Shown piece by piece: positions 1,199 to 63,605 of a stretch of 64,000 bases of DNA; positions within the stretch are counted from its first letter, which is position 1, and the number at the start of each line of letters is the position of its first letter. This DNA is from an uncultured Gemmatimonadales bacterium (GTDB lineage Bacteria > Gemmatimonadota > Gemmatimonadetes > Longimicrobiales > Gaopeijiaceae). Below the pieces are notes generated by a model. It was given only the letters and a program-made list of their open reading frames with translations. It made no database searches and was not told where the DNA came from. The stretch covers positions 1,050,123 to 1,114,122 of the forward strand of contig CAWELD010000010.1 of the NCBI GenBank assembly GCA_963809895.1, written 5' to 3'. The position numbers and the translations under genes are program-made.

Positions 1199-2470
1199 AT
1201 GGGCATCCGGCGACGCACTCCGTTCCTGCAGACACTCCTCATGGGTCTGGCGCCGGTGGCGTTGGGGGCCTGCGCCGATGGCGATTCCCCCGCCACGATC
1301 GGGGTGGACCTCCCGGATCCGGCCGCGGGCGCCGAGGCCTTCACCACGGCGTGCGCGGAGTGCCATGGGAGTGGCGACGGCTTCGATCTGGCCCTCTTCG
1401 GATTCGCGGACACGACCATCGTGCGCCGGGCCGTCGCTCACGTGGACACCGCGACGGCGCTGGACATCGTGGCGCACGTGAGGAGCCTCGGCGTGGCGTC
1501 CATGGGCGAGGAGCGGCGGCCCTTCCAGCCCGCGGTCCAGCCGGTAGCCGACGACGAAGCCTTCGCCGTGGCGCTCTTCGGAGACGACGCCTGGCCGGTG
1601 ATGGACGAAGGCACCCTGAGCGACATCGACCCGAGGGTGGTCGCGACGGCGGTGGCCTTCCCGCGCTGGTCCGACGAGGACAGCAACCTCGATTGGATGC
1701 CCGATGCGCCGCTACCTCCCGATCTGCTCGATGCTCGGGGTGGCATGGCCCGGGCCACGCTGGCGGGCTATTACGCGGCCCCCACCGATGACAACCTGGC
1801 CCGGACCGTCGGGTTGTTGCGCGCCCTGTCCAGAGACCCCGCCGGTGCCGGCGCCGCTTGTCGCCTGGACGAGGAGCGCCGGCTCGCGGATCCCGAAGCG
1901 TGTTTCGAGATCGACCGTTGGATCGCGGCCCTGGCGGCTCAGCACATGCTCCGCAACGGGCGTGAGCTCCAGGGGATGCCCGTCGTACGCGACGCCTTCT
2001 GGGACGTGGGCATGGCGGCGCGCCGGTCGCTGGTGTCGAACCTCGATCCGGTGGACAACGCCGAGGCCAACTGGGGCGTGTGGATGTACCTGGGGTGGAC
2101 GTTCGAGCCGGGCCGGCACGCGTCGGTCTACACGGCGTCGGCGCTGACCAGGGCGGGCCTGCCTCGGCACGCGACCTTCGTAGCGCTCCGCAGTCTGGTG
2201 GCCCGTCCCCCTGGGACACCCATGCCCTTCCAGGACCTGCGCGTCGCGGCGTCGAGCGCGCCGGACCGCTGGCTGGCGACAGCCTACGAGACCGGACTCT
2301 CGGCGCTGGAGGCTCGGGAGCGACGCGGCATGGGACCCGATGCTCCCGAGGCGCGGGCCGACGCGGCGGATGCCCTGGAGGGAGCCGCGGCCGTTCTCCG
2401 AAGGCGGCTGGGCGTCGACGCCTCGCGAACGCTGGTGGAGCGGACCCTGTCGCTGGTCAACGCGCTGTAG
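1199..2470 (+). CDS. Lipoprotein with a single c-type heme motif, function unknown
   Basis: AGGAGG RBS, lipobox LGAC, one CAECH motif, long C-terminal region I do not recognise. Confidence 0.7.
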   Translation: MGIRRRTPFLQTLLMGLAPVALGACADGDSPATIGVDLPDPAAGAEAFTTACAECHGSGDGFDLALFGFADTTIVRRAVAHVDTATALDIVAHVRSLGVASMGEERRPFQPAVQPVADDEAFAVALFGDDAWPVMDEGTLSDIDPRVVATAVAFPRWSDEDSNLDWMPDAPLPPDLLDARGGMARATLAGYYAAPTDDNLARTVGLLRALSRDPAGAGAACRLDEERRLADPEACFEIDRWIAALAAQHMLRNGRELQGMPVVRDAFWDVGMAARRSLVSNLDPVDNAEANWGVWMYLGWTFEPGRHASVYTASALTRAGLPRHATFVALRSLVARPPGTPMPFQDLRVAASSAPDRWLATAYETGLSALEARERRGMGPDAPEARADAADALEGAAAVLRRRLGVDASRTLVERTLSLVNAL

Positions 2471-5075
2471 CACCCGCGCCCCGGCCGGTGCCGCCACCCT
2501 CCGGAACGGCACCGGTATCGGGAGGGGTCGTGTCGGGACGCATGCGAAGACCCGCCGAATCGGGCATGGGGGCCGGCACGCTGTCGGTGCGCACCGGGCC
2601 GGGCCCGCCTCCGTTCAACGGCAGGCGCACCCGGGTGCGCACCCGGGCCTCGTCGCTGCCCCGGAGGGCGTCGGGCATGAGGCCGGCGGGTCGTTGGAAC
2701 GGTTCCCGCCCGATCCCGGGCAGGAGCCAGGGCCGCAGAAGCCTCTCGATCACCGTGAGCTCGACGGGGGTCGCGCCGGCGCCGGTGGTGATTCCCACCG
2801 CCACCGTGTCGCCCGGGGTGCCCCAGTGCAGGAGGGTGCGCACCGGCCCGCCCGCCGAGTCCGCCGGCGGAGGCACGGGCACGCCGTTCACCGACACGAA
2901 CGCGGCCTGGCTGCCTTCCTCGAGCTCCAGGACGAGCACTTCCGCGCCGATTCCCGAGGCCACCCCCACCACCAGTTCGCCCACCGAAGCCGCGCTGTCG
3001 GTACGGGAGACGATGGCCGGGGGGGGCGCCTGTAGCGCGGGGCCGGGGCCGGTGTGGAAGCGGCCGCGCAGGAGGAAGCCCGCAAGCGAATCCTGCTGCA
3101 CCAGCTCTCCCACCGCGCTCTGGGCCCATTCCAGGCCCGGATCACGGGATGCCCAGCGGGCCGTGCCCGCTTCCCGGTCCGCCACGTACAGCAGCGTGGT
3201 GGCCTGAGGTCGGGAGGGGCTGGGGCCCGCGCGCAGGATGCCGGTGGCCACGGCTCCGCCGGCCACGACCAGCGCGAGCACGGGCGCCCACCATCGGTTC
3301 GGCTCGTCGAGGCTGTCCAGTGCGGGGAGCAGCATCAGCAGGGTGAGCGCGGACAGGGCGCCCACGGCGGCGGCGACCTGGAATCCGAAGCCTCGCCACA
3401 CCAGCGCCGTCAGGGGGACCGTCAGGACCATCACCGGCACCGCGAGCAGGAGGGTGAGCACCCACACTGCCAGCGGGTGCTTGCGGCGCGGGCGGGGCAC
3501 GGCCACCAGCGCCGTGGCCAGGAGCGCCGCCGCCAGCGGAACCTGGAGGTTGACGGCGCCCAGGGGCACGGTCCAGGTGAGGGCCACGGTGGCGGCCAGC
3601 GGAACCACCAGGGCCCCGACCAGCAACCCACCCAGAGACATGCGGCGGCGGGCGAGGGTGAACAGCGACAGGACCAACACCAGGGCCACGGCCACGACCC
3701 CCAGCACATAGGGTCCCTCGCCGTAGAACGAGCCGGCGACCAGCGTGCCGTACTCGGCGTGCCGGGGACGGAGCCACTGGAACAGTCCCCACCCCGCGCC
3801 GGCGGCTCCCGCCACGGCCACGAGCCCGAGAACGAGCCCCGTGACCATCTCGCGCCAGGCCGCGCCTCGCGCCCGGGCCAGCGCGGCCACGGCGAGCAGC
3901 AGCACGGCCAGCCCCACGGTGATGGGAAGCGACCATCCGCCGGGGTAGTCCACCAGGCCCAGGAACGGCACCGTGAAGTAGGCTCGATCCGGTGCGTCGA
4001 CGTCGGACAGGTCGTCGTCGCCCAGGGCCCGCGTCAGAGCCAGCACCTGCAAGCCGTGGTGTTCCAGCGTGCCCTCGCTGACGTTCTCGGGCACGTCGGT
4101 GGCCTGATGGTAGATCTCGGGGCTGCCGATGGCGGCGAAGTTGAGTCCCTGCACACCGGACTCCCTCAGCGGCGTGAAGTCCGTGTCGTTCGGCATACGC
4201 CGATACAGGGCCACCGTCAGGGAGTTGGCGAAGGGACGGGGATCGGCGCCGGCCAGCGCCTGGATGATCCACCCGTTGTCGGCGCCGGTCTCGAACATGA
4301 TGGACGGGCCCGATCCCCCGCGCATCTCGACGGACAACGCGACGGAGACATCGGCCAGCCAGGGGTCGTCCCGTACGAAGGCCCGCGATCCGAGCAGGCC
4401 CAGCTCCTCGCCGTCGGTGATCAGGATGATCAGGTCGTTCCGGAGCGGCGGACCGGCCTGCATGGCCCGCAGCGTTTCCAGGATGGTGGCCACGCCCATG
4501 CCGTCGTCGCCGGCGCCGTGGGACAGCGGCACGGCGTCGTAGTGGGCCGTCAGCAGGACGGCACCGGTGGACGACGTGCCTGGCACCCGGGCCACGATGT
4601 CGTGCACCACCGCCGAGTGGACGGCGCCCCCCCGACGCACCACCGAGGTGGCGGAGTCGACCCGGGGATCGAGGCCCAGGGTGCGCAGGCGATCCACGAT
4701 GAGCTCGCGCACGCGAGCGTTCTCCGGCGAGCCCGTGGGGTGGGGCGCCCGGGCGATCTCCACCAGCTCGGCCATGGCGCGTCCCGACGAGAACACCGAG
4801 TCGGGAGCGTTGGCCGCCACCGGGGCCGGCACCGCCCGGCCCGGGCTCGACATCCACGCGGCTACCAACAGGACGACCAGCGTCACGGCTCCACGCCACG
4901 GGCTCCGCGCTTCCGGGGGAGGGGCCGCGGGCGCGGGTCGAGGGGGCTCGGACCCGGGAGGCGGCGTGGCCTCGCCGGAGGCCTCGTCGGCCCCGGGCTC
5001 CTCTTCGGAGAGCCCGGCGATTCCCAACTCCTCGTCGGATGGAAGCTCGGGAATCTTGTAGTCGTCGCTGCTCAT
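2457..5075 (-). CDS. Membrane-bound M28 family metallopeptidase
   Basis: AHYDAVP, GAGDDG, TDGEELG, EMRG and YHQ metal-ligand motifs followed by a multi-TM region. Confidence 0.88.
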   Translation of the reverse strand: MSSDDYKIPELPSDEELGIAGLSEEEPGADEASGEATPPPGSEPPRPAPAAPPPEARSPWRGAVTLVVLLVAAWMSSPGRAVPAPVAANAPDSVFSSGRAMAELVEIARAPHPTGSPENARVRELIVDRLRTLGLDPRVDSATSVVRRGGAVHSAVVHDIVARVPGTSSTGAVLLTAHYDAVPLSHGAGDDGMGVATILETLRAMQAGPPLRNDLIILITDGEELGLLGSRAFVRDDPWLADVSVALSVEMRGGSGPSIMFETGADNGWIIQALAGADPRPFANSLTVALYRRMPNDTDFTPLRESGVQGLNFAAIGSPEIYHQATDVPENVSEGTLEHHGLQVLALTRALGDDDLSDVDAPDRAYFTVPFLGLVDYPGGWSLPITVGLAVLLLAVAALARARGAAWREMVTGLVLGLVAVAGAAGAGWGLFQWLRPRHAEYGTLVAGSFYGEGPYVLGVVAVALVLVLSLFTLARRRMSLGGLLVGALVVPLAATVALTWTVPLGAVNLQVPLAAALLATALVAVPRPRRKHPLAVWVLTLLLAVPVMVLTVPLTALVWRGFGFQVAAAVGALSALTLLMLLPALDSLDEPNRWWAPVLALVVAGGAVATGILRAGPSPSRPQATTLLYVADREAGTARWASRDPGLEWAQSAVGELVQQDSLAGFLLRGRFHTGPGPALQAPPPAIVSRTDSAASVGELVVGVASGIGAEVLVLELEEGSQAAFVSVNGVPVPPPADSAGGPVRTLLHWGTPGDTVAVGITTGAGATPVELTVIERLLRPWLLPGIGREPFQRPAGLMPDALRGSDEARVRTRVRLPLNGGGPGPVRTDSVPAPMPDSAGLRMRPDTTPPDTGAVPEGGGTGRGAGATAR

Positions 5076-55028: not shown

Positions 55029-55625
55029 TCAGATGAGCCCGCCGGCCAGGGCGCGGAGCACATCCATCGTGGTGACGATACCCAGGAGACGGCCGTCTTC
55101 CAGGACCACGGCCCGGTGGATGCGCCCCCTCACCAGAAAGTCCGCCAGTTCACGGAAGGAGGCGTCGGGAGGCACCGAGAACGACACCGGCGTCATGATA
55201 TCGGACACCGTGAGCCGGTCGAGAGGTCCCTCGTCTTCGCTCTCCCGGCTCCACTCGGGTGTCAGCAGGGGCGCGTCTTCGGGGAGGAAGAAGTCGGTGA
55301 ACGGGTCGTCTGCCTGATCCTCCGGATCGGGGATCTCGGGCGCCCCGACCGGCACCCAGCGAGCGCTGGACAGGCGCACCTCCTGCTCCTCGGCCGTGAG
55401 CCGTACCACATCGGACGACGACACCACCCCGAGAACCTCGCCGGAGGCCGTGGTTACGGGCATGCCGCTGATGCCTTCGTCGGCCAGCGTCCTGGCCAGC
55501 TCGCGCACCGACATCTCGGGGGTCGCCGTCACCACCTCGCTCTGCATGAGGTCACGGACGGTCACCATGCTTCCTCCCGCGCTGGATTGCATGAGGGGGG
55601 CCTTCGGGCTTCGTTGGTCGGTCAT
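55029..55625 (-). CDS. CBS domain-containing protein
   Basis: VRDLM..VVT..G.SGMPV..GVVS and VSDIMTP..IHR.VV..GIVT..D. Confidence 0.9.
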   Translation of the reverse strand: MTDQRSPKAPLMQSSAGGSMVTVRDLMQSEVVTATPEMSVRELARTLADEGISGMPVTTASGEVLGVVSSSDVVRLTAEEQEVRLSSARWVPVGAPEIPDPEDQADDPFTDFFLPEDAPLLTPEWSRESEDEGPLDRLTVSDIMTPVSFSVPPDASFRELADFLVRGRIHRAVVLEDGRLLGIVTTMDVLRALAGGLI

Positions 55626-56524
55626 TCCTCGGGACTCTCTGGCCGCTGCACCAGGATCGGTACGTGCACGGCCCGGATCACCTTGTCCGTGGTGCTGCCG
55701 AGAAGGGCCCGCTGAAGCCCTCCGCGACCGTGCGTGGCCATGACCACGAGTTGAGCGTCGAGCTCCTCGACCTCGCGTGCGACGGCGTGACCCGCCTGGG
55801 TATCCACCGTGACGTGCACCGTGGCCTCCACGCCCTCAGCGGTGATGCGGGCGGCGATACGCTCCAGGTAGGCACGCGCCGCGTCCCTCGCCTCTTCCAC
55901 CACCTTCTGATTCATCTGGACCGTGTGGGGCAGGTACGGCGAGGCGATTTCCATGGGGTACGCCACGACGCGCAGGAGACGGATCTGGCTCCCATAGAGC
56001 TTGGCCATGCCGATGGCCAGGTCGAGGACGGACTCGGACAGCTCCGAGCCGTCCAGGGGCACGACGATACGCTGCACCTCGGGCTCCACCGTGGGGTCCG
56101 GATGGTCGTCCTCGGGTCGCACGAGAAGGATCGGCTGGTGCGCGTGGCGCACGAAGCCGTCGGCCACGCTGCCGAGCCAGGCCCGGGTGAGGGCGCCGCG
56201 GCCGTGGGTCGCCATGACCACGAGGTCGGCCTCGGTGGAATCGGCCCGGCTCATGAGGAGCTCCACGACCCGGCCGGTACCCACCCAGGCATGGACCTCT
56301 CCGTCGGTCCGCTGGCGGATCTGCTCACGCACGTTGCGCAGGTAGTCTTCGGACCACTGCCAGGCGGCGGACTCCCACTCGTCGTACGCGAAAGACGGCA
56401 CGGGCTCGTGCACCGAGGCGAGCTGCAGGGCGGCGTGGGTCCTGCGACTCAGGCCCAGCGCCCAGGGAAGCGCCGCCTCGGAGAATGCGGAGCCGTCCAG
56501 CGGGACCAGGATCGTGCGGAACAT
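55622..56524 (-). CDS. Tandem universal stress protein
   Basis: Two units: ILVPLDGS..SE..LVVMATHGRG..LGS. Confidence 0.93.
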   Translation of the reverse strand: MFRTILVPLDGSAFSEAALPWALGLSRRTHAALQLASVHEPVPSFAYDEWESAAWQWSEDYLRNVREQIRQRTDGEVHAWVGTGRVVELLMSRADSTEADLVVMATHGRGALTRAWLGSVADGFVRHAHQPILLVRPEDDHPDPTVEPEVQRIVVPLDGSELSESVLDLAIGMAKLYGSQIRLLRVVAYPMEIASPYLPHTVQMNQKVVEEARDAARAYLERIAARITAEGVEATVHVTVDTQAGHAVAREVEELDAQLVVMATHGRGGLQRALLGSTTDKVIRAVHVPILVQRPESPEE

Positions 56525-56580: not shown

Positions 56581-57735
56581 TCAGCCCGTGGCCCCCGCCG
56601 GTATCATTCGTTCGGGCGGCGGGCTCGAAAGCGGGTCGCCCCCGGGCGGCTCGTCGCCGGCCGCCCAGGGCAGCACCAGGCGTAGGCGTGTGCCCCGGCC
56701 CGGTCGCGAGTCCACCGTGAGCGATCCACCGGCATAACCGGCCCGTTCCTCCATACCCATCAAGCCCAGGCCCGCTCCGCCGGCGAAGGAAAGCGTGGTC
56801 TGGTCGAAGCCCTGTCCGTCGTCCTCGATCTCGGTCACGAGGCCGTCGGCCGCGCCGAAGAAGCGCGTGTGCACGTGGCCGGCTCCGGCGTGGCGGGCGG
56901 CGTTGGTCAGGGCCTCCTGAACGATACGGAAGAGCGCCAGCCGCACGCCGTCGCTGAGGTCCGCCTCCGGAATCTGGCCCAGGAATTCCATGCGCAGGGT
57001 CCGGGACTCGGTGAGTCGCCGGGCGTGCGCTTCCAGGGCCGCGCGCACACCCAGCTCGTCCAACTCGGGGGGACGCAGGCGTCGTGCCACACCACGGATC
57101 TCCTCCAGCGCCTGGCGGATCTCGGTGGTGACCTCGTCCATGCGGCTACACGGGGAATCCTCCGGCTCCTGCCGGGAAAGGATGCGTAACCGCACCAGGA
57201 CCCCCGCCAGCGTCTGGGCGGTGCCGGAATAGAGCTCGTGGGCGATACGCTCCCGCTCCCGTTCTTCGGCTTCGAGCACACGCCGGGCCAACTCGCGCTG
57301 GCGGCGCTGCGCCGCCGAGACCGTGTCCAACATGTCGTTGAAGGTGTGGCTCAAGCGGTCGAGGCGGTCGTCGGCCAGCACCGAGTGGGGGACGCGCGAG
57401 GCCATGTCTCCGTTCCGGACCCGAAAGGCCGTGTCGGTCAGGGTGTCGACGGGGCGCAACGCCAATCGTACCACGGCGGCGTTCGCCAGCGCGGCAAGGG
57501 TGACCATGGCCACCGACACGCCGGCGACCACGGGAAGGACGGGGGCGTGCACGCGGTCGAGGAAGAGCGCCACGGTGGCTCCGGCGGCCGCCACCAGGAC
57601 CACGTTCGCCAGCAGGAGCTTCCAGAACAGCGGGACGCGCAGGATCGACGTCGCCCAAAGCGGTACCCTGGGCGGCCGCGTCGCCAGCGGCTGCCCGGTG
57701 TCGTGCCCCGCGTCGTGGGAGGGCGGTGCGTCCAT
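56581..57735 (-). CDS. 2-TM HAMP + HisKA_3-like kinase lacking the canonical phospho-His
   Basis: H-box reads RIAHELYSGTAQ; N/G1/G2 boxes intact (QEALTNAARHA, EDDGQGF, GLGLMGMEERA). Confidence 0.85.
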   Translation of the reverse strand: MDAPPSHDAGHDTGQPLATRPPRVPLWATSILRVPLFWKLLLANVVLVAAAGATVALFLDRVHAPVLPVVAGVSVAMVTLAALANAAVVRLALRPVDTLTDTAFRVRNGDMASRVPHSVLADDRLDRLSHTFNDMLDTVSAAQRRQRELARRVLEAEERERERIAHELYSGTAQTLAGVLVRLRILSRQEPEDSPCSRMDEVTTEIRQALEEIRGVARRLRPPELDELGVRAALEAHARRLTESRTLRMEFLGQIPEADLSDGVRLALFRIVQEALTNAARHAGAGHVHTRFFGAADGLVTEIEDDGQGFDQTTLSFAGGAGLGLMGMEERAGYAGGSLTVDSRPGRGTRLRLVLPWAAGDEPPGGDPLSSPPPERMIPAGATG

Positions 57736-57835
57736 GTGGCGGATATCCGGACCTGAGAAAACGACACCGCGAGAGCCACATTTTCGGCATGCCCCTCGCG
57801 GTTGCCTCGAATGGACCTAAATTGGAGGGGGCACC

Positions 57836-57888
57836 ACAGACCGTCTGTAGGGATAGGTTGGCGCGCGCCTGTGGGAGTTTCCTTGACA
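57836..57888. promoter_or_regulatory. Candidate regulator sites in the divergent promoter
   Basis: ACAGAC-C-GTCTGT palindrome (57836-48) and TGTGGGA-N5-CTTGACA (57870-88). Confidence 0.35.
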
Positions 57889-57920
57889 CACCCTCCTGAA
57901 CCACGACGAGCGGCTCGGCT

Positions 57921-58949
57921 GTGACCAACGAGTACTATCGCGCGATCTTCGACTTTTCTCCCGACGGCATCCTGGTCGTGGACGACGACGGGATCATATG
58001 CCGTGTGAACCCGCGCGCCGAGGAGCTCTTCGGCTTCGAGCCCGGGGCGCTGGCGGGTCAGTCCGTCGAGATGCTGGTGCCCGACGCGCTGCGACCGGGT
58101 CATGTGCAGCACCGCAAGGCCTACGTCGCCGACTCGGCTCGCCGGCCCATGGGAATCGGGCTCGAGCTTCGTGCGCGCCGCTCCGACGGCACGGAGTTCC
58201 CGGTGGAGATCTCCCTGAGCCCGGTGGACACCGAGGACGGGCGCCACACGTTGGCCACTGTGCGCGACGTCACGCAGCGCAAGCGCCTGCGGGACTTCGG
58301 TGCCGGCGCCTTGCGGGCGTCGGAAGACGAACGCGCGCGCATCGCACGAGAGCTTCACGACGACACGGCGCAGCGTCTCGCCACCACGCTGTTGAGGCTT
58401 CGCATCCTGGAGCGCATGGTGGAGGGTGAGGAGCGCCTGGAGGTCATCGAGGAACTCCGCGACTCGCTCCAGCAGACCGCGGAGGGCGTGAGGCGCATCG
58501 CCCGTGGGCTGCGGCCGCCGGAGCTTCAGGACGCCGGTCTCACCACGGCTCTGCGGTCCTACGCGCGCAGCCTGCTGGACGGTCGAGGCCTCAAGGTCGA
58601 CCTTGACGTCGAGCCCGTCGACGAGTACCTGACGGCCGATGGGAAGCTGGTGGTCTATCGCGTCGTGCAGGAGGCGCTCAACAACGTTTCGCGCCATGCC
58701 GACGCCAGTGCGGCCCGGGTCCTCCTCCGGAAGTCCGGAGGCCACATCGTCGCCGAGGTCGAGGATGAAGGGCGTGGCTTCTCGCCCCACCGGGTCCAGA
58801 ACGACGGCGGCGGCCTCGGGCTGCTGGGAATGCAGGAGCGTGCAGCCATGGTGGGAGGATTGGTTACCGTGGATTCCAGGCCCGGCGAAGGCACCCGCGT
58901 GGTGATCCGGGTCCCTGTGGAGATCGAGAGAGAGGTGGAGCGTGTCTGA
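57921..58949 (+). CDS. Cytoplasmic PAS + HisKA_3 sensor histidine kinase
   Basis: PAS (NPRAEELFG..LVP..RPGH..RRSDGTEFPVEISL), RIARELHDDTAQ, QEALNNV.RHA, DEG.GF, GLLGMQERA. Confidence 0.92.
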   Translation: MTNEYYRAIFDFSPDGILVVDDDGIICRVNPRAEELFGFEPGALAGQSVEMLVPDALRPGHVQHRKAYVADSARRPMGIGLELRARRSDGTEFPVEISLSPVDTEDGRHTLATVRDVTQRKRLRDFGAGALRASEDERARIARELHDDTAQRLATTLLRLRILERMVEGEERLEVIEELRDSLQQTAEGVRRIARGLRPPELQDAGLTTALRSYARSLLDGRGLKVDLDVEPVDEYLTADGKLVVYRVVQEALNNVSRHADASAARVLLRKSGGHIVAEVEDEGRGFSPHRVQNDGGGLGLLGMQERAAMVGGLVTVDSRPGEGTRVVIRVPVEIEREVERV

Positions 58950-59595
58950 GACCCGGATTCTTCTTGTCGACGACCACGCCATGTTCCGGGCGGGGATCAA
59001 GTCCCTGCTGGAGTCGGAGGAACGCCTGACCGTGATCGGTGAGGCGTCCACCGGTGACGAGGCCGTGGACCAGGTCCGGGCGCTCAAGCCCGACGTGGTG
59101 GTGATGGACCTCTCCATGCCCGGATCCAACGGGCTGGAGGCGACCCGCCGCATCGCGGCACTGGGCCTCGACACGCGGGTGCTGGTCCTCACCGTGCATG
59201 CCGAGGAGGAGTACCTGGTGCCCGTGGTGGAGGCCGGCGCCAGCGGATACCTGACCAAGACCAGCGCGGACCGTGACCTCATCGAGGCCATCAAGGTGGT
59301 CTCCCGCGGTGAGGTGTATCTGCCACCGAAGGCCACGCGGCTCCTGTTGCAGCAATACCGCTCGGCCGAGGCCAACCCCGATCTGGCCGATCTCCACGAG
59401 CTGAGCTCGCGGGAGCAGGAAGTGCTGGCTCTCACCGCAGAGGGCTTCAGCTCGCGAGAGATCGGCAAGAAGCTCTTCATCTCGCCCAAGACCGTGGACA
59501 CGTACCGGGCTCGCATCATGGAGAAACTGAGCCTGAACCACCGATCCGAGTTGGTGCGCTTCGCCCTGCGCGTGGGCCTTCTGAAGGAGATGTAA
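58942..59595 (+). CDS. NarL/LuxR family response regulator
   Basis: LVDDH, VMDLSMP, LSSREQEVL, IG..LFIS.KTV.TYR..IM.KL. Confidence 0.94.
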   Translation: MSETRILLVDDHAMFRAGIKSLLESEERLTVIGEASTGDEAVDQVRALKPDVVVMDLSMPGSNGLEATRRIAALGLDTRVLVLTVHAEEEYLVPVVEAGASGYLTKTSADRDLIEAIKVVSRGEVYLPPKATRLLLQQYRSAEANPDLADLHELSSREQEVLALTAEGFSSREIGKKLFISPKTVDTYRARIMEKLSLNHRSELVRFALRVGLLKEM

Positions 59596-59614: not shown

Positions 59615-59684
59615 TGTGGGGGTCCTCCCCACACGAATCGTGGCACCCTTCCTGACAGAGCGCCGCTTTCCGCGGCCGTAGTAT
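59615..59684 (+). promoter_or_regulatory. Candidate activator sites and promoter for the tauE-cco operon
   Basis: Perfect TGTGGGG-N5-CCCCACA (59615-33), degenerate CGTGGCA-N5-CCTGACA (59639-57), TAGTAT (59679-84). The first site could instead be a terminator hairpin. Confidence 0.4.
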
Positions 59685-59749
59685 TGGGGCCGTCATGGGT
59701 ACCGCCCACCGAGCGGGGCGAGGCCCGACCCTCCCGGACCCCACGACGC

Positions 59750-60460
59750 ATGCTCGCCTCTCTCAGCGCCGCCTTTCTTGCCGGCTTCGTCGGCAGTCCT
59801 CACTGCATGGGCATGTGCGGAGGTTTCGCCGTTGCGTGCGGTGGAGCCCGTCGTGGGCTCGCCTGGCACGCGGGGCGCATCACCACCTACGCCCTGCTGG
59901 GCGCCGCCGCCGGGGCTTTCGGCCGCGTGCTTCCAGGACCGACCTGGGTGGCCACCGTCGTTTCCGTCGCCCTGTTGGTGTGGTTCGCGGCCGCCCTGGC
60001 GGGCCTGGTTCGTGAGCCGGCGCTGAAGATTCCCGGGCTCGGGCGGCTCATGGCCCGGGCTTCCGGCGACGCCGGGGCCGGCTCCCGGGTGGTCATGGGA
60101 CTGGCCACGGGCCTGCTCCCCTGCGGGTTGCTGTACGCCGCGCTGGCGTTGCCCGTGGCATCGGGAAGCGCCGTCGTCGGGGCCTCGGCCATGGTGGCGT
60201 TCGGGCTCGGCACGGCTCCGGCGCTCGTGGCGCTCACCCTGGGCGCCCGCCAGGTGATCCTCCGCGACCTGCGTGTCCGTCGGCTCATGGCCGCGGGCGT
60301 CCTGGTGCTGGGGCTCGTGTCCATGGGCATGCGCCAGGGCGCGACGGCTGGAATGGACCACGGCGCGGGGCACGAAGGCCCCGCGACTTCGCAGGTGACC
60401 CCGGACCTCCCGGCGTCGCCGACTTCGCTTCCCGCCCCGGCCCACGCGTCCGGCGGCTGA
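59750..60460 (+). CDS. Sulfite exporter TauE/SafE-like (DsbD_2) cbb3-associated membrane protein
   Basis: GFVGSPHCMGMCG, GRI.TY..LG, GLLPCGLLY, FGLGT.P. Confidence 0.88.
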   Translation: MLASLSAAFLAGFVGSPHCMGMCGGFAVACGGARRGLAWHAGRITTYALLGAAAGAFGRVLPGPTWVATVVSVALLVWFAAALAGLVREPALKIPGLGRLMARASGDAGAGSRVVMGLATGLLPCGLLYAALALPVASGSAVVGASAMVAFGLGTAPALVALTLGARQVILRDLRVRRLMAAGVLVLGLVSMGMRQGATAGMDHGAGHEGPATSQVTPDLPASPTSLPAPAHASGG

Positions 60461-60493
60461 GGGTCCCCTCTCCTTCTTCTCCGAGGAACGCCA

Positions 60494-61957
60494 ATGGCTC
60501 TCGACGCGACCGCCCCCCGGCCCGCCGGGGAGGCCACCGCCACGGCGGCCACGCCGAACTACGACGACGCGGTGGTGAAGATGTTCTTCACCGCCACCGT
60601 CGTCTGGGCTCTCGTGGGCATGCTCGTGGGCGTGATCATCGCCCTGCAGCTCGCCTGGTGGCCCGCCAATCTCGGCCTGCCCTGGACGACCTTCGGCCGT
60701 CTGCGCCCCCTGCACACCAACGCGGTGATCTTCGCGTTCGCCGGCAACGTGTGCTTCACCGGCATCTACCACTCGACGCAGCGACTCCTGAAGACGCGCA
60801 TGTTCAGCGACGTGCTCTCCAGGATCCATTTCTGGGGATGGCAGACGATCATCGTGGGGGCCGCCATCACGCTGCCCCTCGGGATGACGCAGTCCAAGGA
60901 ATACGCCGAGCTGATCTGGCCCATCGACGTGGCCATCACGCTGGTGTGGGTGGTTTTCGCCGTGAACTTCTTCGGCACCCTGGCCATCCGGAAGGTGAAG
61001 CACCTGTACGTGGCGCTGTGGTTCTACATGTCGTTCGTCATCACCATCGCGGTGCTCCACATCGTGAACAGCCTGGCGATCCCGGCTACGCTCTTCCGCT
61101 CGTATCCGATCTACGCCGGGCTCACCGACGCGCTGGTGCAGTGGTGGTACGGGCACAACGCGGTGGGCTTCTTCCTGACCACGCCGTTCCTGGGGCTGAT
61201 GTACTACTACCTGCCCCGGGCGGCGGAGCGCCCCGTCTACAGCTACCGGCTCTCCATCATCCACTTCTGGGGACTGGTGTTCCTGTACATCTGGGCCGGA
61301 CCGCACCACCTGCTCTATTCGGCGTTGCCGGAATGGGCGCAGACGCTGGGCATGGTGTTCAGCATCATGCTGCTGGCGCCGTCGTGGGGCGGCATGCTCA
61401 ACGGGCTCCTCACGCTCAAGGGAGCCTGGAACAAGCTCCGCACCGACCCGGTGCTCAAGTTCATGGTGGTGGCCGTGAGCTTCTACGGCATGAGCACCTT
61501 CGAAGGGCCCATGATGTCGATCCGGGCCGTGAACGGGCTGGCTCACTACACCAACTGGGTGATCGGCCACGTGCATTCCGGTGCCCTGGGCTGGGTGGGG
61601 ATGATCTCCTTCGGGATGCTGTACTGGCTGGCGCCACGGCTCTTCAACAAGCCGCTCGCCTATCCCAACGGGCCCACGCAGCACTTCTGGCTGGCCACCA
61701 TCGGCATCGTGCTCTACACGGTGGCGATGTGGGCGGCGGGACTCATGGAGGGGCTCCAGTGGCGCGCCATCAACGACACGGGCCAGCTCGCCAACCCGAT
61801 CTTCCTGGACATCGTCCACCGGCTGCAGCCCTTCCTCTGGCTGCGGGTGCTGGGCGGGGCCCTGTACCTCACCGGAGCGATCATGATGGCGGTGAACTTC
61901 TGGAAGACCATCCGCGGACCCGAGCGCCCGGCCGAGGCCGTGGCGGCAACGGCGTGA
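60494..61957 (+). CDS. ccoN: cbb3-type cytochrome c oxidase subunit I
   Basis: [42 protein letters not shown]. Confidence 0.97.
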
Positions 61958-61969
61958 GGGGAGGATACC

Positions 61970-62764
61970 ATGGCTGACAACAACCAGACGCACGAGTCCG
62001 AGAAGGCCTACGGCCGCATCCACCGACGCATCTTCGAGGGAAAAGCGGCGGTCTTCGCCGTGGCCACCACGGTGGCGATCTCCATCGGTGGGCTCGTGGA
62101 GATCACTCCGATGTTCACCGCGACCCTGGGGCCGGAGCGCTCGGAGGCGGTGACGCCGTACACGCCCCTCGAGGTGGCCGGGCGCGACATCTACATCCGC
62201 GAGGGCTGCTACCTGTGCCACTCGCAGATGGTGCGGCCCATGCGCGCCGAGATCCTGCGCTACGGGGAATGGACGCGGGCGTGGGAGTATGCCTACGACC
62301 GCCCCTTCCTGTTGGGCTCGCGCCGCATCGGGCCCGATCTGCAGCGCGTCGGCGGCAAGTATCCCGACGCGTGGCACTACGAGCACATGCGCGATCCCCG
62401 CTCCGTATCGCCGGGCAGCATCATGCCACCCTATCCGTGGCTCCTGAAGTGGACTGTGGACCCGGCGGACATCACCGCGTCGGTGCGGGCACTGAGCAAG
62501 GTGGGCACACCCTACGAGAGCACCGATCAGGAATGGGTCGCGGCCCAGCTCCAGTCGCAGGGGCAGGGCATCGTGACCGCGCTGTCGCAGACGGGTATCG
62601 AGACCACCTGGGACCGGGAGATCGTGGCCCTCATCGCCTATCTGCAGCGGCTCGGCGTGGACGGCAAGCGCATCCTGCAGGAGCAGGAGCGGGCCCAGGG
62701 CGGAGCCACCGCTTCGGCCACCACGCCGGCGGACGCTGGCGCCGGCCCGGAGGGAACCCCGTGA
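61970..62764 (+). CDS. ccoO: cbb3 oxidase subunit II
   Basis: PYTPLE..GRDIY.REGCYLCHSQM.RP, GS.R.GPDL, WHY.HM.DP, S.MP.Y. Confidence 0.96.
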   Translation: MADNNQTHESEKAYGRIHRRIFEGKAAVFAVATTVAISIGGLVEITPMFTATLGPERSEAVTPYTPLEVAGRDIYIREGCYLCHSQMVRPMRAEILRYGEWTRAWEYAYDRPFLLGSRRIGPDLQRVGGKYPDAWHYEHMRDPRSVSPGSIMPPYPWLLKWTVDPADITASVRALSKVGTPYESTDQEWVAAQLQSQGQGIVTALSQTGIETTWDREIVALIAYLQRLGVDGKRILQEQERAQGGATASATTPADAGAGPEGTP

Positions 62765-62940
62765 ATCCTCTCCTTCGCGAGGCCGCCGGCTCGGTGGAGA
62801 TGGGCTGGCTGCTGGGCCTCATGACGCTGGTGTTCCTGGCCTTCTTCATCGGTTGGGCCTGGTGGGCGTATTCGCCCAAGCACAGGGAGATCATGGAAGA
62901 GGCATCGCGCATGCCGTTCACGGATGGAGGAGCAGAGTGA
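62761..62940 (+). CDS. ccoQ: cbb3 oxidase small subunit
   Basis: 59 aa, one TM helix, WWAY..K...E.A..PF; GTGA overlaps at both ends. Confidence 0.85.
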   Translation: MNPLLREAAGSVEMGWLLGLMTLVFLAFFIGWAWWAYSPKHREIMEEASRMPFTDGGAE

Positions 62941-63605
62941 GCAAGGAAACCAACCGGCTCATGGGCCACGCCGACGAGGCGGACGGCATCGAGGAATACG
63001 ACAACCCCTTGCCGGACTGGTGGCTGGGCCTGTTCTGGTTCACCATCGTCTGGGCCATCGGCTACGGGGTCCATTACCACTTCATCGCCCACCGCTCGCA
63101 GGTGAAGCACCTGGCGGCGGAGATGGCCGCGGCCGACGCTCGCTGGCCGGCGCAGCTACAGGCCAACGTGTCGTTCGCGTTCACGCCCGAGGCGATCCAG
63201 GCCGGGGAACAGGTGTTCGCCCAGAACTGCGCCCCCTGCCACGGGGCCGACCTCAAGGGCAACATCGGCCCGTCGTTCCTGGACGACGAGTGGCTGCACG
63301 GGGGCCAGGTGTCGCAGGTGCTGAACACCATCCGCCACGGTGTGCTGGACAAGGGTATGGTGGCATGGGAGGGGATCCTGAGCCCCGAGCAGATCAACGA
63401 CGTGGCCGCGTACGTGCTCTCCAAGCACGCCGAGGCCACGGGGCGCTCGTACGAAGACATCCTGAAGCCGCCGGCGGACAGCGCCGGAGCGGCCGGCGAC
63501 AGTGCCGGCGTGGCGGGGGACAGCGCCGGAGTGGCCGGTGACACCGCCGCTGCGTCCGGAGGCGCCGCGGCAGGCGCTCGGTCCGGCGCCGACTCGGGCC
63601 GGTAA
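62937..63605 (+). CDS. ccoP: cbb3 oxidase subunit III (single heme)
   Basis: H.ADGIEEYDNPLPDWW..LF, one CAPCHG, W.HGG, G.L.KGM.AW. Confidence 0.93.
   Translation: MSKETNRLMGHADEADGIEEYDNPLPDWWLGLFWFTIVWAIGYGVHYHFIAHRSQVKHLAAEMAAADARWPAQLQANVSFAFTPEAIQAGEQVFAQNCAPCHGADLKGNIGPSFLDDEWLHGGQVSQVLNTIRHGVLDKGMVAWEGILSPEQINDVAAYVLSKHAEATGRSYEDILKPPADSAGAAGDSAGVAGDSAGVAGDTAAASGGAAAGARSGADSGR
63478..63561 (+). repeat. Four 21-bp tandem units encoding a DSAG(A/V)AG tail in ccoP
   Basis: GACAGCGCCGGAGCGGCCGGC-like unit repeated four times with degeneration. Confidence 0.75.

What the first reader, a model, noticed from the sequence alone, without database searches (positions are those of the whole stretch)
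56581..59595. His-less pseudo-kinase divergent from an intact PAS kinase: possible two-input oxygen switch
Seen: the membrane kinase has ELYS (TAT TCC, 57226-31) where the neighbouring kinase has ELHD. This is a multi-base change, not an indel error. Its ATP-binding boxes are intact, and its DHp closely parallels the PAS kinase (TAQ.LA..L.RLRIL; R..AR.LRPPEL). Only one response regulator is present. Known: HisKA_3 kinases autophosphorylate on the ELHD His. Inference: the His-less protein acts as a phosphatase, an inhibitor or a trans-acting ATPase in a heterodimer, adding a membrane signal to the control of the USP/CBS and cbb3 genes. The His three residues upstream (AHEL) is an alternative acceptor to test.
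Basis: partly seen in the sequence, partly recalled or inferred. Interest (0 to 1): 0.65.

Follow-up and report, generated by a model that had tools for sequence, protein, structure and literature searches.

The report
Conserved histidine-less sensor kinase paralog
A membrane sensor protein that looks like a bacterial histidine kinase but has tyrosine where the phosphorylated histidine should be is not a broken gene: it is an old, conserved partner of a neighbouring oxygen-sensor-like kinase and their single shared regulator in many Gemmatimonadota, and it most likely switches that regulator off.

Summary
ORF 56581-57735(-) is a TM-HAMP-HisKA_3-HATPase_c protein. Its H-box reads AHELYSGTAQ (Tyr169, TAT at 57229-57231), where the divergent PAS kinase reads ARELHDDTAQ.

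This is not strain decay. Among the 120 closest homologues the site is Tyr in 115 and Phe in 5, never His. The phosphatase Gln174 and the ATP-box residues examined are invariant.

On a 150-protein tree the protein sits in a supported His-less clade of 59 rows (Y 40, F 9, mostly Leu 8, His 2). I examined 42 gene neighbourhoods that carry the module, covering at least 16 genera and including members only about 40% identical. In every one the protein lies back-to-back with a FixL-like PAS-HisKA_3 kinase (His kept) and one NarL-type regulator.

Other families of the order have one canonical membrane His-kinase next to the orthologous regulator and no PAS kinase.

USP and cbb3 adjacency is lineage-specific. 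The upstream His166 is not conserved. One sub-lineage has lost the ATP-binding residues.

Best reading: a kinase-dead accessory sensor, most likely locked in the phosphatase or regulator-docking state. Laboratory DesK H188V is the precedent. A DivL-like non-catalytic role is the main rival.

It is a new variant of the pseudo-histidine-kinase kind. No experiments exist.

The parts
56581..57735 (-). His-less sensor-kinase paralogue ('YK'), 384 aa: TM hairpin, HAMP, HisKA_3 DHp, HATPase_c
   Evidence: ORF. Pfam. AF2 model with pLDDT 84. Foldseek hits VraS CA and DesK.
57469..57630 (-). Two transmembrane helices (residues ~36-61 and 66-~89) joined by a loop of about 4-6 residues. A conserved juxtamembrane motif R-x-P-L-F-W-K-I-x-L-A-N sits at the start of TM1. 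The topology is that of an intramembrane sensor.
   Evidence: AF2 secondary structure. Column conservation: L32, F37, W38, K39, A43 and N44. The motif is also present in outer clade members.
57319..57474 (-). HAMP domain (residues 88-139)
   Evidence: Pfam PF00672, E 0.0011, below the gathering score. P95, G109, R114, D122 and N133 are invariant.
57061..57258 (-). HisKA_3 DHp domain (residues 160-225)
   Evidence: Pfam PF07730, E 2.3e-9. Aligned to the DesK DHp.
57229..57231 (-). Tyr169 codon (TAT) at the position of the phospho-accepting His
   Evidence: Y 115, F 5, H 0 in 120 homologues. Aligned with DesK His188.
57226..57228 (-). Ser170 codon (TCC), where HisKA_3 kinases have the Asp of the H-D-x-x-x-Q motif
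   Evidence: S 67, A 49, Q 3, D 1 in 120 homologues. Basal His-less members keep Asp.
57214..57216 (-). Gln174 codon, the phosphatase Gln of the DxxxQ motif (NarX Gln, DesK Gln193)
   Evidence: 120 of 120 invariant and essentially invariant in about 145 cluster representatives. Its role is described in PMC3510030 and PMC5231405.
57238..57240 (-). It is not conserved.
   Evidence: H in 99 of 120, otherwise G/R/S/A/N/Q. It varies across the wider clade.
56665..56946 (-). HATPase_c catalytic domain (residues 264-357) with intact N box (N278, 56902-56904), G1 (D305-G309, 56809-56823) and G2 (G322-G327, 56755-56772)
   Evidence: Pfam E 4.3e-15. N278, D305, G307, G309, G324, E330, R331 and G348 are invariant in 120 homologues. 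The CA domain superposes on VraS with TM 0.82.
57736..57920 (.). Divergent intergenic region with blocks conserved across the genus: CCCCTCGCG, CTAAATTG, and GTCTGT(A/C)GGGA ... TGTGGG(G)AG (window ~57843-57886). These are probably promoter or operator elements.
   Evidence: MAFFT alignment of 13 syntenic intergenic regions. The motif is not enriched elsewhere in the window.
57921..58949 (+). PAS-HisKA_3-HATPase_c kinase ('PASK'), 342 aa. It has a FixL/DosP-like PAS domain (residues 4-122), an aligned proximal His61 (58101-58103) and the phospho-acceptor His146 (58356-58358).
   Evidence: Pfam. PDB phmmer hits: FixL 3.6e-14, DosP 1.8e-10, 10jx 3.8e-18. Coordinates.
58942..59595 (+). NarL/FixJ-type response regulator (REC + GerE HTH). 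It overlaps the PASK stop codon by 8 nt.
   Evidence: Pfam. It is 80-92% identical across the module's genomes, far more conserved than either kinase.
55622..56524 (-). Tandem-USP protein, 56 bp downstream of YK on the same strand
   Evidence: Pfam Usp x2, E 5.4e-53. It follows YK in most of the core clade but not in G015, P0220 or the outer members.
55029..55625 (-). CBS-pair protein, overlapping the USP stop
   Evidence: Pfam CBS x2. It is present in only some genomes.
59684..63605 (+). DsbD_2-family membrane protein followed by ccoN, ccoO and ccoP (cbb3 oxidase) downstream of the regulator. This adjacency is specific to the genus.
   Evidence: Pfam. Synteny by tblastn in G004, G006, G009, G012, G015 and G017 (G007's contig ends within ccoN, G001's within the DsbD_2 gene). 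Absent next to the module in L035-L042.

Best explanation
YK is a conserved, kinase-dead paralogue of a membrane HAMP-HisKA_3 sensor kinase. Together with the adjacent FixL-like PAS kinase and the single NarL-type regulator it forms a three-protein signalling module.

Shown:
- The acceptor His has been replaced by Tyr, Phe or Leu throughout a large clade.
- The regulator-docking helix, the phosphatase Gln and, in most members, the ATP-binding site are under strong purifying selection.
- The PAS kinase and regulator are always next door.

Inferred:
- YK cannot autophosphorylate on the canonical site.
- It still docks the shared regulator through its ancestral DHp surface.
- It acts as a dedicated phosphatase, or at least a sink, for the phosphorylated regulator. 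Its DHp would be held in the 'His-buried' phosphatase conformation by the hydrophobic or aromatic residue, as in the laboratory mutant DesK H188V.
- Kinase and phosphatase activities of one ancestral bifunctional sensor would thus be split between two paralogues with separate inputs: a cytoplasmic heme-PAS/O2 input drives phosphorylation, and an intramembrane TM-HAMP input drives dephosphorylation.
For: 1. Tyr/Phe is fixed: 115 Y and 5 F of 120, with no frame damage at 49-68% identity.
2. The His-less clade is supported (SH-aLRT 95, 59 rows: Y 40, F 9, L/S/V 8, H 2). The window's subclade has support 99. The replacements are almost all hydrophobic or aromatic. The Phe and Leu members sit in the same module (L037, L043, L041, L058-L067), so the Tyr hydroxyl is dispensable.
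3. Gln174 is invariant. Helix alpha1, G171-R184 (GTAQTLAGVLVRLR), is invariant or nearly so. It matches TAQTLAGLLIRLR of the canonical G038 kinase that sits beside the orthologous regulator.
4. Basal His-less members keep the complete x-D-x-x-x-Q phosphatase motif.
5. All 42 neighbourhoods that carry the module have PASK with ELHDD plus one regulator. The module was found at 18 of the 21 His-less loci of the family sample that had enough flank.
6. His loss is associated with a PASK neighbour: 18/3 against 3/10, Fisher p = 6.5e-4, not corrected for phylogeny.
7. Other families of the order have one membrane His-kinase beside the regulator orthologue and no PAS kinase. This fits duplication followed by subfunctionalisation.
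8. YK has no regulator of its own in the genome.
9. Literature: the HisKA_3 phosphatase reaction uses the Gln. In the DesK phosphatase state His188 is buried and more than 18 A from the regulator's Asp. DesK H188V is a 'phosphatase-trapped species' that still binds DesR (PMC5231405; PMC3510030).
Against: - No biochemistry exists for any member.
- In the core clade, including the window, the Asp of DxxxQ is Ser, Ala or Gly. NarX was reported to need both Asp and Gln (PMC3510030).
- The best-studied Tyr-for-His protein, DivL, has neither kinase nor phosphatase activity (PMC4211667).
- Invariant ATP boxes are not required by a pure phosphatase. A nucleotide cofactor effect on phosphatase activity is known for other kinases, but that rests on my own knowledge and was not tested here.
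- A direct YK-regulator interaction is inferred only from conservation and synteny.
- The relationship of YK, PASK and the canonical membrane kinases is an unresolved trichotomy, so the duplication scenario is not proven.
Confidence: 0.45

Rival explanations
1. DivL-like non-catalytic sensor or scaffold. YK binds the regulator, perhaps specifically its phosphorylated form, or binds the PAS kinase. It then allosterically raises or lowers PASK kinase/phosphatase output without catalysing anything itself.
For: The Tyr-for-His substitution is the same as DivL Tyr550, and DivL Y550F still binds DivK~P (PMC4211667). The Asp of DxxxQ is lost in the core clade. A sub-lineage has lost the ATP-binding residues yet keeps the module. 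RocA is a membrane pseudokinase that tunes CovS (PMC7380576 and PMC7028121).
Against: Unlike DivL and PsmA, the examined ATP-box residues and the phosphatase Gln are invariant in 120 of 120 close homologues. That is hard to explain for a pure scaffold. The DHp subfamily (HisKA_3 against HisKA) and the sensor (TM-HAMP against PAS) also differ from DivL.
Confidence: 0.27
2. Heterodimer partner of the PAS kinase. The YK and PASK DHp helices pair, and the intact YK ATPase domain trans-phosphorylates PASK His146. Alternatively YK poisons PASK dimers, as RetS does to GacS.
For: The two proteins are each other's closest paralogues in the genome (40% identity). They share TAQ.LA..L.RLRIL and R.(I/V)AR.LRPPEL. 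ATP boxes are conserved in most members. The two genes are always adjacent (the same 42 contexts).
Against: YK alpha1 is nearly invariant across the clade, whereas PASK alpha1 varies at the corresponding positions (RLATTLL, QLSAHLL, RLATVL). Members with degenerate ATP sites keep the module. One protein is membrane-anchored through HAMP and the other is cytoplasmic, with different helical inputs. No multimer model could be run.
Confidence: 0.13
3. Non-canonical phospho-acceptor. YK autophosphorylates on Tyr169, His166 or His237 and passes or holds the phosphate.
For: The ATP site is intact. His237 is invariant in the 120 closest homologues. A natural His169 form (G001, DLHD) is nested inside the Tyr clade, which suggests the scaffold can still be a kinase.
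Against: Phe, Leu and Val replace Tyr169 in members of the same module. His166 is variable. Position 237 is H, Y, L, E, Q, R or F across the wider clade, and also H, Y or L in canonical kinases. By the DesK alignment it lies in the first helix of the CA domain, not on the DHp.
Confidence: 0.07
4. Strain-specific decay or assembly error of an ordinary kinase.
For: His to Tyr needs only one transition. An earlier scan note (e1-5258899) reports a private His-to-Tyr variant in another genome.
Against: 115 Tyr and 5 Phe of 120 homologues. The trait is conserved in at least 18 genera, the ORFs are intact and the functional motifs are invariant.
Confidence: 0.01

Closest known systems
DivL of Caulobacter crescentus (pseudo-histidine kinase, Tyr550)
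   Same: Tyr replaces the phospho-accepting His in a DHp-CA protein. The substitution is conserved. The protein works as an accessory to a true kinase pathway by docking a response regulator. Phe can substitute for Tyr in binding (PMC4211667).
   Different: DivL has a HisKA-type DHp, multiple PAS sensor domains, weak ATP binding and no phosphatase activity. YK has a HisKA_3 DHp, a TM-HAMP sensor, invariant ATP-box residues and the invariant HisKA_3 phosphatase Gln. It is encoded back-to-back with its presumed partner kinase and regulator.
DesK H188V (laboratory mutant of the Bacillus subtilis HisKA_3 thermosensor)
   Same: Same DHp subfamily. The acceptor His is replaced by a hydrophobic residue. 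The mutant is described as a phosphatase-trapped species and still binds the regulator DesR. In the DesK phosphatase state the His is buried and Gln193 positions the water (PMC5231405). YK Tyr169 aligns with His188 and Gln174 with Gln193.
   Different: It is an engineered mutant of a bifunctional kinase, not a natural paralogue. DesK keeps Asp189, whereas YK has Ser170.
DosS/DosT-DosR (DevS/DosT-DevR) of Mycobacterium tuberculosis
   Same: Two HisKA_3 sensor proteins converge on one NarL-type regulator. The input is gas/redox sensing through heme. Tandem-USP and CBS-pair genes belong to the regulon (own knowledge). The YK and PASK CA domains hit the DevS and DosT CA structures.
   Different: Both Dos kinases keep the acceptor His and are cytoplasmic GAF-heme proteins. 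Here one partner is His-less and membrane-anchored.
FixL-FixJ (rhizobia), with anti-kinase FixT
   Same: The PAS domain of PASK is most similar to the FixL/DosP heme-PAS and the proximal His aligns. The regulator is of the FixJ/NarL type. In the window's genus cbb3 (fixNOP-like) genes lie next to the regulator. An accessory protein modulates the pathway (FixT; own knowledge).
   Different: FixL has a HisKA-type transmitter. FixT is a receiver-like protein, not a kinase paralogue. Heme binding by PASK is untested.
RocA-CovS-CovR (group A Streptococcus) and RetS-GacS (Pseudomonas)
   Same: A membrane kinase-like accessory protein that does not use its own phosphorylation site modulates the kinase/phosphatase balance of a true sensor kinase acting on one regulator (PMC7380576 and PMC7028121; RetS from own knowledge).
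   Different: RocA has a degenerate catalytic domain and is encoded away from covRS. RetS is a hybrid kinase that keeps its His. Neither belongs to HisKA_3.
PsmA of Streptomyces (histidine pseudokinase)
   Same: A conserved kinase-like protein whose H-box residue varies (E, D, Q, V, Y) and which lacks autokinase activity (PMC12963549).
   Different: PsmA has lost the ATP-binding motifs and the phosphatase motif, and it acts on the polarisome rather than a regulator. YK keeps both motifs.

Membership tests
Canonical HisKA_3 sensor histidine kinase (NarX/DesK/LiaS type) | HisKA_3 DHp domain followed by an HATPase_c domain | tested here: met
   Pfam PF07730 E 2.3e-9 and PF02518 E 4.3e-15. The AF2 model matches DesK and VraS.
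Canonical HisKA_3 sensor histidine kinase (NarX/DesK/LiaS type) | Phospho-accepting His in the H-box (E-L-H-D) | tested here: not met
   Tyr169 aligns with DesK His188. 0 of 120 close homologues have His.
Canonical HisKA_3 sensor histidine kinase (NarX/DesK/LiaS type) | N, G1 and G2 ATP-binding boxes | tested here: met
   N278, D305xG307xG309 and G322-G327 are present, and N278, D305, G307, G309 and G324 are invariant in 120 homologues.
Canonical HisKA_3 sensor histidine kinase (NarX/DesK/LiaS type) | ATP-dependent autophosphorylation and transfer to a cognate regulator | not testable with these tools
   Needs a [gamma-32P]ATP assay.
HisKA_3 transmitter phosphatase (DxxxQ mechanism) | Gln five residues after the acceptor position | tested here: met
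   Gln174 is 120 of 120. Its role is given in PMC3510030 and PMC5231405.
HisKA_3 transmitter phosphatase (DxxxQ mechanism) | Asp immediately after the acceptor position | tested here: not met
   The window has Ser170. The core clade has S 67, A 49 and D 1. Basal members of the His-less clade do keep Asp.
HisKA_3 transmitter phosphatase (DxxxQ mechanism) | Acceleration of regulator~P hydrolysis | not testable with these tools
   Needs a regulator~P half-life assay.
DivL-type pseudo-histidine kinase | Conserved Tyr in place of the acceptor His | tested here: met
DivL-type pseudo-histidine kinase | HisKA-type DHp with cytoplasmic multi-PAS sensor | tested here: not met
   HisKA_3 DHp, two TM helices plus HAMP, and no PAS domain.
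DivL-type pseudo-histidine kinase | Impaired ATP binding and no catalytic motifs required | tested here: not met
   The ATP boxes are invariant in the window's close relatives. The feature is met only in the G015/P0153/P0220 sub-lineage.
DivL-type pseudo-histidine kinase | Phospho-specific binding of a regulator and control of a partner kinase | not testable with these tools
   Only synteny with PASK and the regulator in the 42 module-bearing contexts bears on this.
FixL-type heme-PAS oxygen sensor kinase (for the neighbour PASK) | PAS fold homologous to the FixL/DosP heme-PAS with a proximal His | tested here: met
   phmmer against PDB: FixL 3.6e-14, DosP 1.8e-10. PASK His61 aligns with the FixL heme His (the identity of the FixL ligand is from own knowledge).
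FixL-type heme-PAS oxygen sensor kinase (for the neighbour PASK) | HisKA-type transmitter; heme b binding; O2-inhibited kinase | tested here: inconclusive
   The transmitter is HisKA_3, not HisKA. Heme binding and the O2 response cannot be tested here.
DosS/DosT-DosR-type two-kinase, one-regulator system | Two HisKA_3 kinases, both with an acceptor His, feeding one NarL-type regulator | tested here: not met
   There is one regulator and two HisKA_3 proteins, but only PASK has the His.

The most novel reading that the evidence does not exclude
The module is a natural split of a bifunctional sensor kinase into two paralogues. One is kinase-only in effect: the cytoplasmic FixL-like PAS kinase. 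The other is a genetically hard-wired, phosphatase-locked membrane sensor, in which His is replaced by Tyr, Phe or Leu to hold the HisKA_3 DHp in the His-buried state. Phosphorylation and dephosphorylation of one regulator would then be gated by two independent inputs (O2 and a membrane signal). This would be the first natural, dedicated 'histidine-kinase-fold phosphatase' family. Rare nested His forms (G001 DLHD, genus g159 ELHN) would offer natural revertants for testing.
Probability: 0.4. Interest if true: 0.75.

Novelty: new variant of a known kind. Interest (0 to 1): 0.6.

Why it matters
Pseudo-histidine kinases are known from a handful of cases (DivL, RocA, PsmA). In each of these the catalytic apparatus is degenerate.

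Here a whole clade has removed only the phospho-acceptor. It spans at least 18 genera of one Gemmatimonadota family and more than 100 sequence clusters at 90% identity. It keeps the ATP site, the phosphatase glutamine and the regulator-docking helix. In every neighbourhood where the module was found, a His-competent PAS kinase and a single regulator lie beside it.

That makes it a clean natural system for three questions:
- Can kinase and phosphatase functions of two-component sensors be partitioned between paralogues?
- What is the nucleotide site for when no autophosphorylation occurs?
- How does the HisKA_3 'buried His' phosphatase conformation work?

It also matters for annotation. Sources call these proteins 'sensor histidine kinase', 'ATP-binding protein' or 'UhpB'.

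The nearest representatives also show many other His-less HAMP-HisKA_3 proteins with Gln, Glu or Asn at the site. Loss of the acceptor may therefore be more common in this subfamily than is recognised.

Tried and rejected
1. A strict back-translated H-box pattern scanned over 401 genomes of the phylum found only 5 genomes. It was too strict: it misses ELYARTAQ, ELYDD, ELLD and others. The sample also held few genomes of the relevant genera. I replaced it with protein searches at relatives and family level.

2. I looked for a regulator-binding motif shared by the YK/PASK, USP and cbb3 promoters. The conserved intergenic block GTCTGTNGGRA is not enriched in the window: 6 matches against 7.8 expected. 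No regulon could be defined.

3. I tested the idea that the intact ATP site is tied to the downstream USP gene. G015 and P0220 (degenerate CA) lack USP, but P0153 (degenerate CA) has it. Outer members with an intact CA lack USP. The idea was dropped.

4. His166 and His237 as relocated acceptors were rejected on conservation and position.

5. The AF2 monomer confirms the fold but says nothing about dimer or heterodimer geometry.

6. Literature searches for His-less HisKA_3 proteins or for this module in Gemmatimonadota found nothing.

7. Cluster look-ups gave no taxonomic names for the outer clade members.

Full report
**1. What is in the sequence**

ORF 56581-57735 on the minus strand encodes 384 aa. 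Pfam finds a weak HAMP (residues 88-139), HisKA_3 (160-225, E 2.3e-9) and HATPase_c (264-357, E 4.3e-15).

An AlphaFold2 model built on 53 homologues has mean pLDDT 84. It shows two transmembrane helices (36-61 and 66 to about 89) joined by a very short loop. These are followed by HAMP, a long DHp helix alpha1 (123-189), alpha2 (197-220) and an alpha/beta catalytic domain. Foldseek returns the VraS catalytic domain (TM 0.82 on the target) and many DesK structures.

The H-box reads ERERIAHELYSGTAQTLAG. HMMER aligns Tyr169 with the phospho-accepting His188 of DesK and Gln174 with DesK Gln193.

The divergent gene 57921-58949(+) is a PAS-HisKA_3-HATPase_c kinase with ERARIARELHDDTAQ (His146). Gene 58942-59595(+), overlapping it by 8 nt, is a REC-GerE (NarL/FixJ-type) regulator.

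The two kinase-like proteins are 40% identical over 228 residues (E 1e-38).

The genome holds only four HisKA_3 proteins. The other two each have their own adjacent NarL-type regulator, so the Tyr protein (YK below) has none of its own.

**2. Not decay: the substitution is a clade character**

The 120 best homologues are 49-68% identical. All are metagenomic or MAG proteins, and the sources that name them call them Gemmatimonadota or Longimicrobiales. At position 169 they have Tyr 115 times, Phe 5 times and His never.

Position 170 is Ser 67, Ala 49, Gln 3 and Asp 1. Gln174 is 120 of 120. The ATP-binding residues N278, D305, G307, G309, G324, E330, R331 and G348 are all 120 of 120. The stretch G171-R184 of alpha1 is invariant or nearly so.

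An exhaustive HMMER search of 1.84 billion cluster representatives gave 1,168 hits at E <= 1e-30. About 145 of the 150 best were under 600 aa and were aligned. Of these, 67 have His, 33 Tyr, 14 Gln, 7 Phe, 6 Leu and 4 Glu, plus a few Ser, Asn, Thr, Arg and Val. Gln174 and the N and G1 boxes are kept in nearly all.

A maximum-likelihood tree of 150 proteins places the window's protein in a subclade with support 99 (33 rows: Y 27, F 5, H 1). That subclade lies inside a clade with support 95 (59 rows: Y 40, F 9, Leu/Ser/Val 8, H 2). The rest of the tree is mainly His (68 of 91). At least 17 His/non-His changes are needed on the whole tree.

The replacements inside the clade are almost all aromatic or aliphatic.

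**3. The conserved unit is a three-gene module**

In the window's genus the whole neighbourhood is syntenic. The order is OMP, coiled-coil protein, CBS, tandem USP and YK on one strand, then PASK, regulator, DsbD_2-family protein and ccoNOP on the other. Contig ends or the short 4-kb loci cut some of these neighbourhoods short.

More distant members lose the outer genes but not the core. L035-L039 are 42-53% identical and L040-L042 about 40% identical, with Y-D or L-D boxes. Each still has a PAS-HisKA_3 kinase with ELHDD and a REC-GerE regulator, divergently transcribed from the His-less gene. The gene downstream of YK becomes an FAD oxidoreductase, an alcohol dehydrogenase or nothing. cbb3 genes are not adjacent.

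I then sampled 121 genomes of the family. 42 genomes in 31 of 81 genera had a hit at E <= 1e-40, and I read the best 29 loci. Excluding L056, which sits at a contig end:
- 18 His-less loci (Y, F or L) have the FixL-like PAS kinase next door.
- 3 His-less loci do not, within the 1.5-kb flank (L052, L053, L071).
- 3 loci of one genus have ELHN together with the PAS kinase.
- 4 canonical ELHD loci have no PAS kinase.

I added the six canonical His loci fetched at 14-15 kb from the other families (L021-L024, L033, L034), none of which has a PAS kinase. The association of His loss with a PAS-kinase neighbour is then 18/3 against 3/10. Fisher p is 6.5e-4, not phylogenetically corrected.

Altogether 42 neighbourhoods show the module: 13 in the genus, 8 metagenomic and 21 in the family sample. 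In 38 of them the membrane partner lacks His.

The regulator is 80-92% identical across these genomes, much more conserved than either kinase.

**4. Origin**

In two other families of the same order there is no PAS kinase. Searches with PASK hit only its transmitter domain, and the hit falls on the same gene that is the best YK hit. That gene is a membrane HAMP-HisKA_3 kinase with ELHD(E/G)TAQ. In several genomes it is immediately followed by the regulator's orthologue (63-68% identity).

A transmitter-only tree gives YK as one clade (98/95) and PASK as another (100/99). Both form an unresolved trichotomy with these canonical kinases.

YK retains the alpha1 surface TAQTLAG(V/L)L(V/I)RLR of the canonical G038 kinase.

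The simplest history is an inference. An ordinary membrane kinase-regulator pair was duplicated. One copy acquired a FixL-like PAS input and kept the His. The other kept the TM-HAMP input and lost the His.

The single His form in the window's genus (G001, DLHD) is nested with strong support beside G007 (DLYD) inside the Tyr clade. This looks like a reversion.

**5. Mechanism**

It is shown that the canonical acceptor is absent. It is also shown that the Tyr hydroxyl is not essential, because Phe and Leu members occupy the same module.

His166 is not conserved. His237 is invariant only among close relatives. By the DesK alignment and the model, it lies in the first helix of the catalytic domain. 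A relocated acceptor is therefore unlikely.

What selection keeps is informative. The Gln that positions the hydrolytic water in the HisKA_3 phosphatase reaction is kept (NarX, and DesK Gln193; PMC3510030 and PMC5231405). The regulator-docking face of alpha1 is kept. In basal members the whole x-D-x-x-x-Q motif is kept.

In DesK the phosphatase state buries His188 in the helical bundle, more than 18 A from the regulator's Asp. The hydrophobic mutant H188V is described as a 'phosphatase-trapped species' that still binds DesR.

A natural His to Tyr, Phe or Leu change is therefore expected to give a kinase-minus protein biased to the phosphatase, regulator-docking conformation. I take this as the best explanation (0.45). 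YK would be a membrane-signal-gated phosphatase or sink for the regulator that the PAS kinase phosphorylates.

Several points argue against it:
- The Asp of DxxxQ is Ser, Ala or Gly in the core clade.
- DivL, the classic Tyr-for-His protein, has no phosphatase activity.
- Strictly conserved ATP boxes need another reason. A nucleotide cofactor effect is known for other sensor phosphatases, but this is my own knowledge and untested here.

The rivals are:
- a DivL/RocA-like non-catalytic modulator (0.27);
- a heterodimer or trans-phosphorylation partner of PASK (0.13), weakened by the sub-lineage that has lost the N-box Asn and the G1 Asp yet keeps the module (G015, P0153, P0220 and others);
- a non-canonical acceptor (0.07);
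- decay (0.01).

**6. The 'oxygen switch' part**

The PAS domain of PASK is most similar to a PAS domain of a deposited 'multi-sensor signal transduction histidine kinase' (10jx, 3.8e-18). The next hits are the FixL heme-PAS domains (3.6e-14 and weaker) and DosP (1.8e-10). His61 of PASK aligns with the FixL heme-ligating His (the ligand identity is from my own knowledge).

In the window's genus the regulator is followed by a cbb3 oxidase cluster, and YK by tandem-USP and CBS-pair genes. This recalls FixLJ-fixNOQP and the DosR regulon (own knowledge).

An O2 input is therefore plausible. However, cbb3 and USP/CBS are lineage-specific neighbours, not part of the conserved module. No shared operator could be found.

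**7. Comparison and novelty**

YK fails the defining test of a canonical HisKA_3 kinase, because it has no His. It is also not a DivL family member: the DHp subfamily differs, the sensor differs and the ATP site is intact. It works most like DesK H188V or DivL.

Searches of the paper library found no description of His-less HisKA_3 proteins or of this module.

Earlier notes of this scan report what looks like the same module in another genome (e1-3911162). They also report independent His-less kinase paralogues beside NarL-type regulators in other phyla (e1-362486 and e1-942289). I treat these as unchecked leads. They suggest the phenomenon is recurrent.

Verdict: a real, conserved feature and a new variant of the pseudo-histidine-kinase kind. 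Interest is 0.6.

Noticed in passing
L025 (G001:C328) 2088-4304: In the same-genus genome G001 the YK orthologue carries a restored DLHD box. Its reading frame also runs without a stop into the downstream tandem-USP gene, giving 739 codons stop-to-stop. The USP ATG and an apparent ribosome-binding site are still present. This is either a natural kinase-USP fusion or a lost stop or assembly error in a 400-contig MAG.
   Followed up: partly
window 57780-57890 (intergenic 57736-57920): Blocks conserved across 13 syntenic genomes in the divergent promoter region: CCCCTCGCG, CTAAATTG, GTCTGT(A/C)GGGA, and about 17 nt further TGTGGG(G)AG..TTCC.CAC. They are candidate promoter or operator elements. 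They are not enriched elsewhere in the window.
   Followed up: partly
L032 (G015:C1:2316615-2317676), L038, L039; proteins P0151, P0153, P0189, P0220, P0221: A sub-lineage of the Tyr/Phe clade has additionally lost the N-box Asn and the G1 Asp, and Pfam no longer detects HATPase_c. It still sits divergently from the PAS kinase and regulator. This looks like a second step of pseudo-enzyme evolution.
   Followed up: partly
cluster representatives P0137, P0148, P0158, P0167, P0180, P0200, P0214, P0231, P0232, P0236, P0240, P0242 and others: Outside the Tyr clade, many otherwise canonical HAMP-HisKA_3 proteins have Gln, Glu, Asn, Thr or Arg at the acceptor position (22 of 91 rows). They keep the Gln and the ATP boxes. 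Their gene contexts were not examined. Acceptor loss may be common in this subfamily.
   Followed up: no
window 57619-57642 (residues 32-39) and homologues: A strongly conserved juxtamembrane motif L-R-x-P-L-F-W-K-(I/L)-x-L-A-N lies at the cytoplasmic start of TM1. It is present throughout the His-less clade (RTPLYFKLLLPN, RVPLFYKILIAN). The periplasmic loop and TM2 are variable. It is a possible interaction or sensing site.
   Followed up: no
window 57025-57027 (His237, ALEAHAR): His237 is invariant in the 120 closest homologues. The PAS kinase has Tyr at the aligned position (ALRSYAR), an apparent His/Tyr swap relative to the H-box. Across the wider clade the position is H, Y, L, E, Q, R or F, so the swap is probably coincidental.
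   Followed up: partly
L055, L057, L064 (genus g159): The membrane partner of the module in this genus has ELHNELAQ: His is present and Asn replaces the Asp. It is nested among Tyr-Asp relatives. This is a second possible reversion or retention.
   Followed up: no
L035 3093-3710, L037 5484-6062: A DUF411 (CopG-like) gene lies next to the regulator in two distant module loci. This matches an earlier first-reader note from another genome.
   Followed up: no
window 59684-60460: A DsbD_2-family (PF13386) membrane protein is encoded between the regulator and ccoN. It is conserved at that place in the genus, and its role in cbb3 biogenesis is unknown.
   Followed up: no
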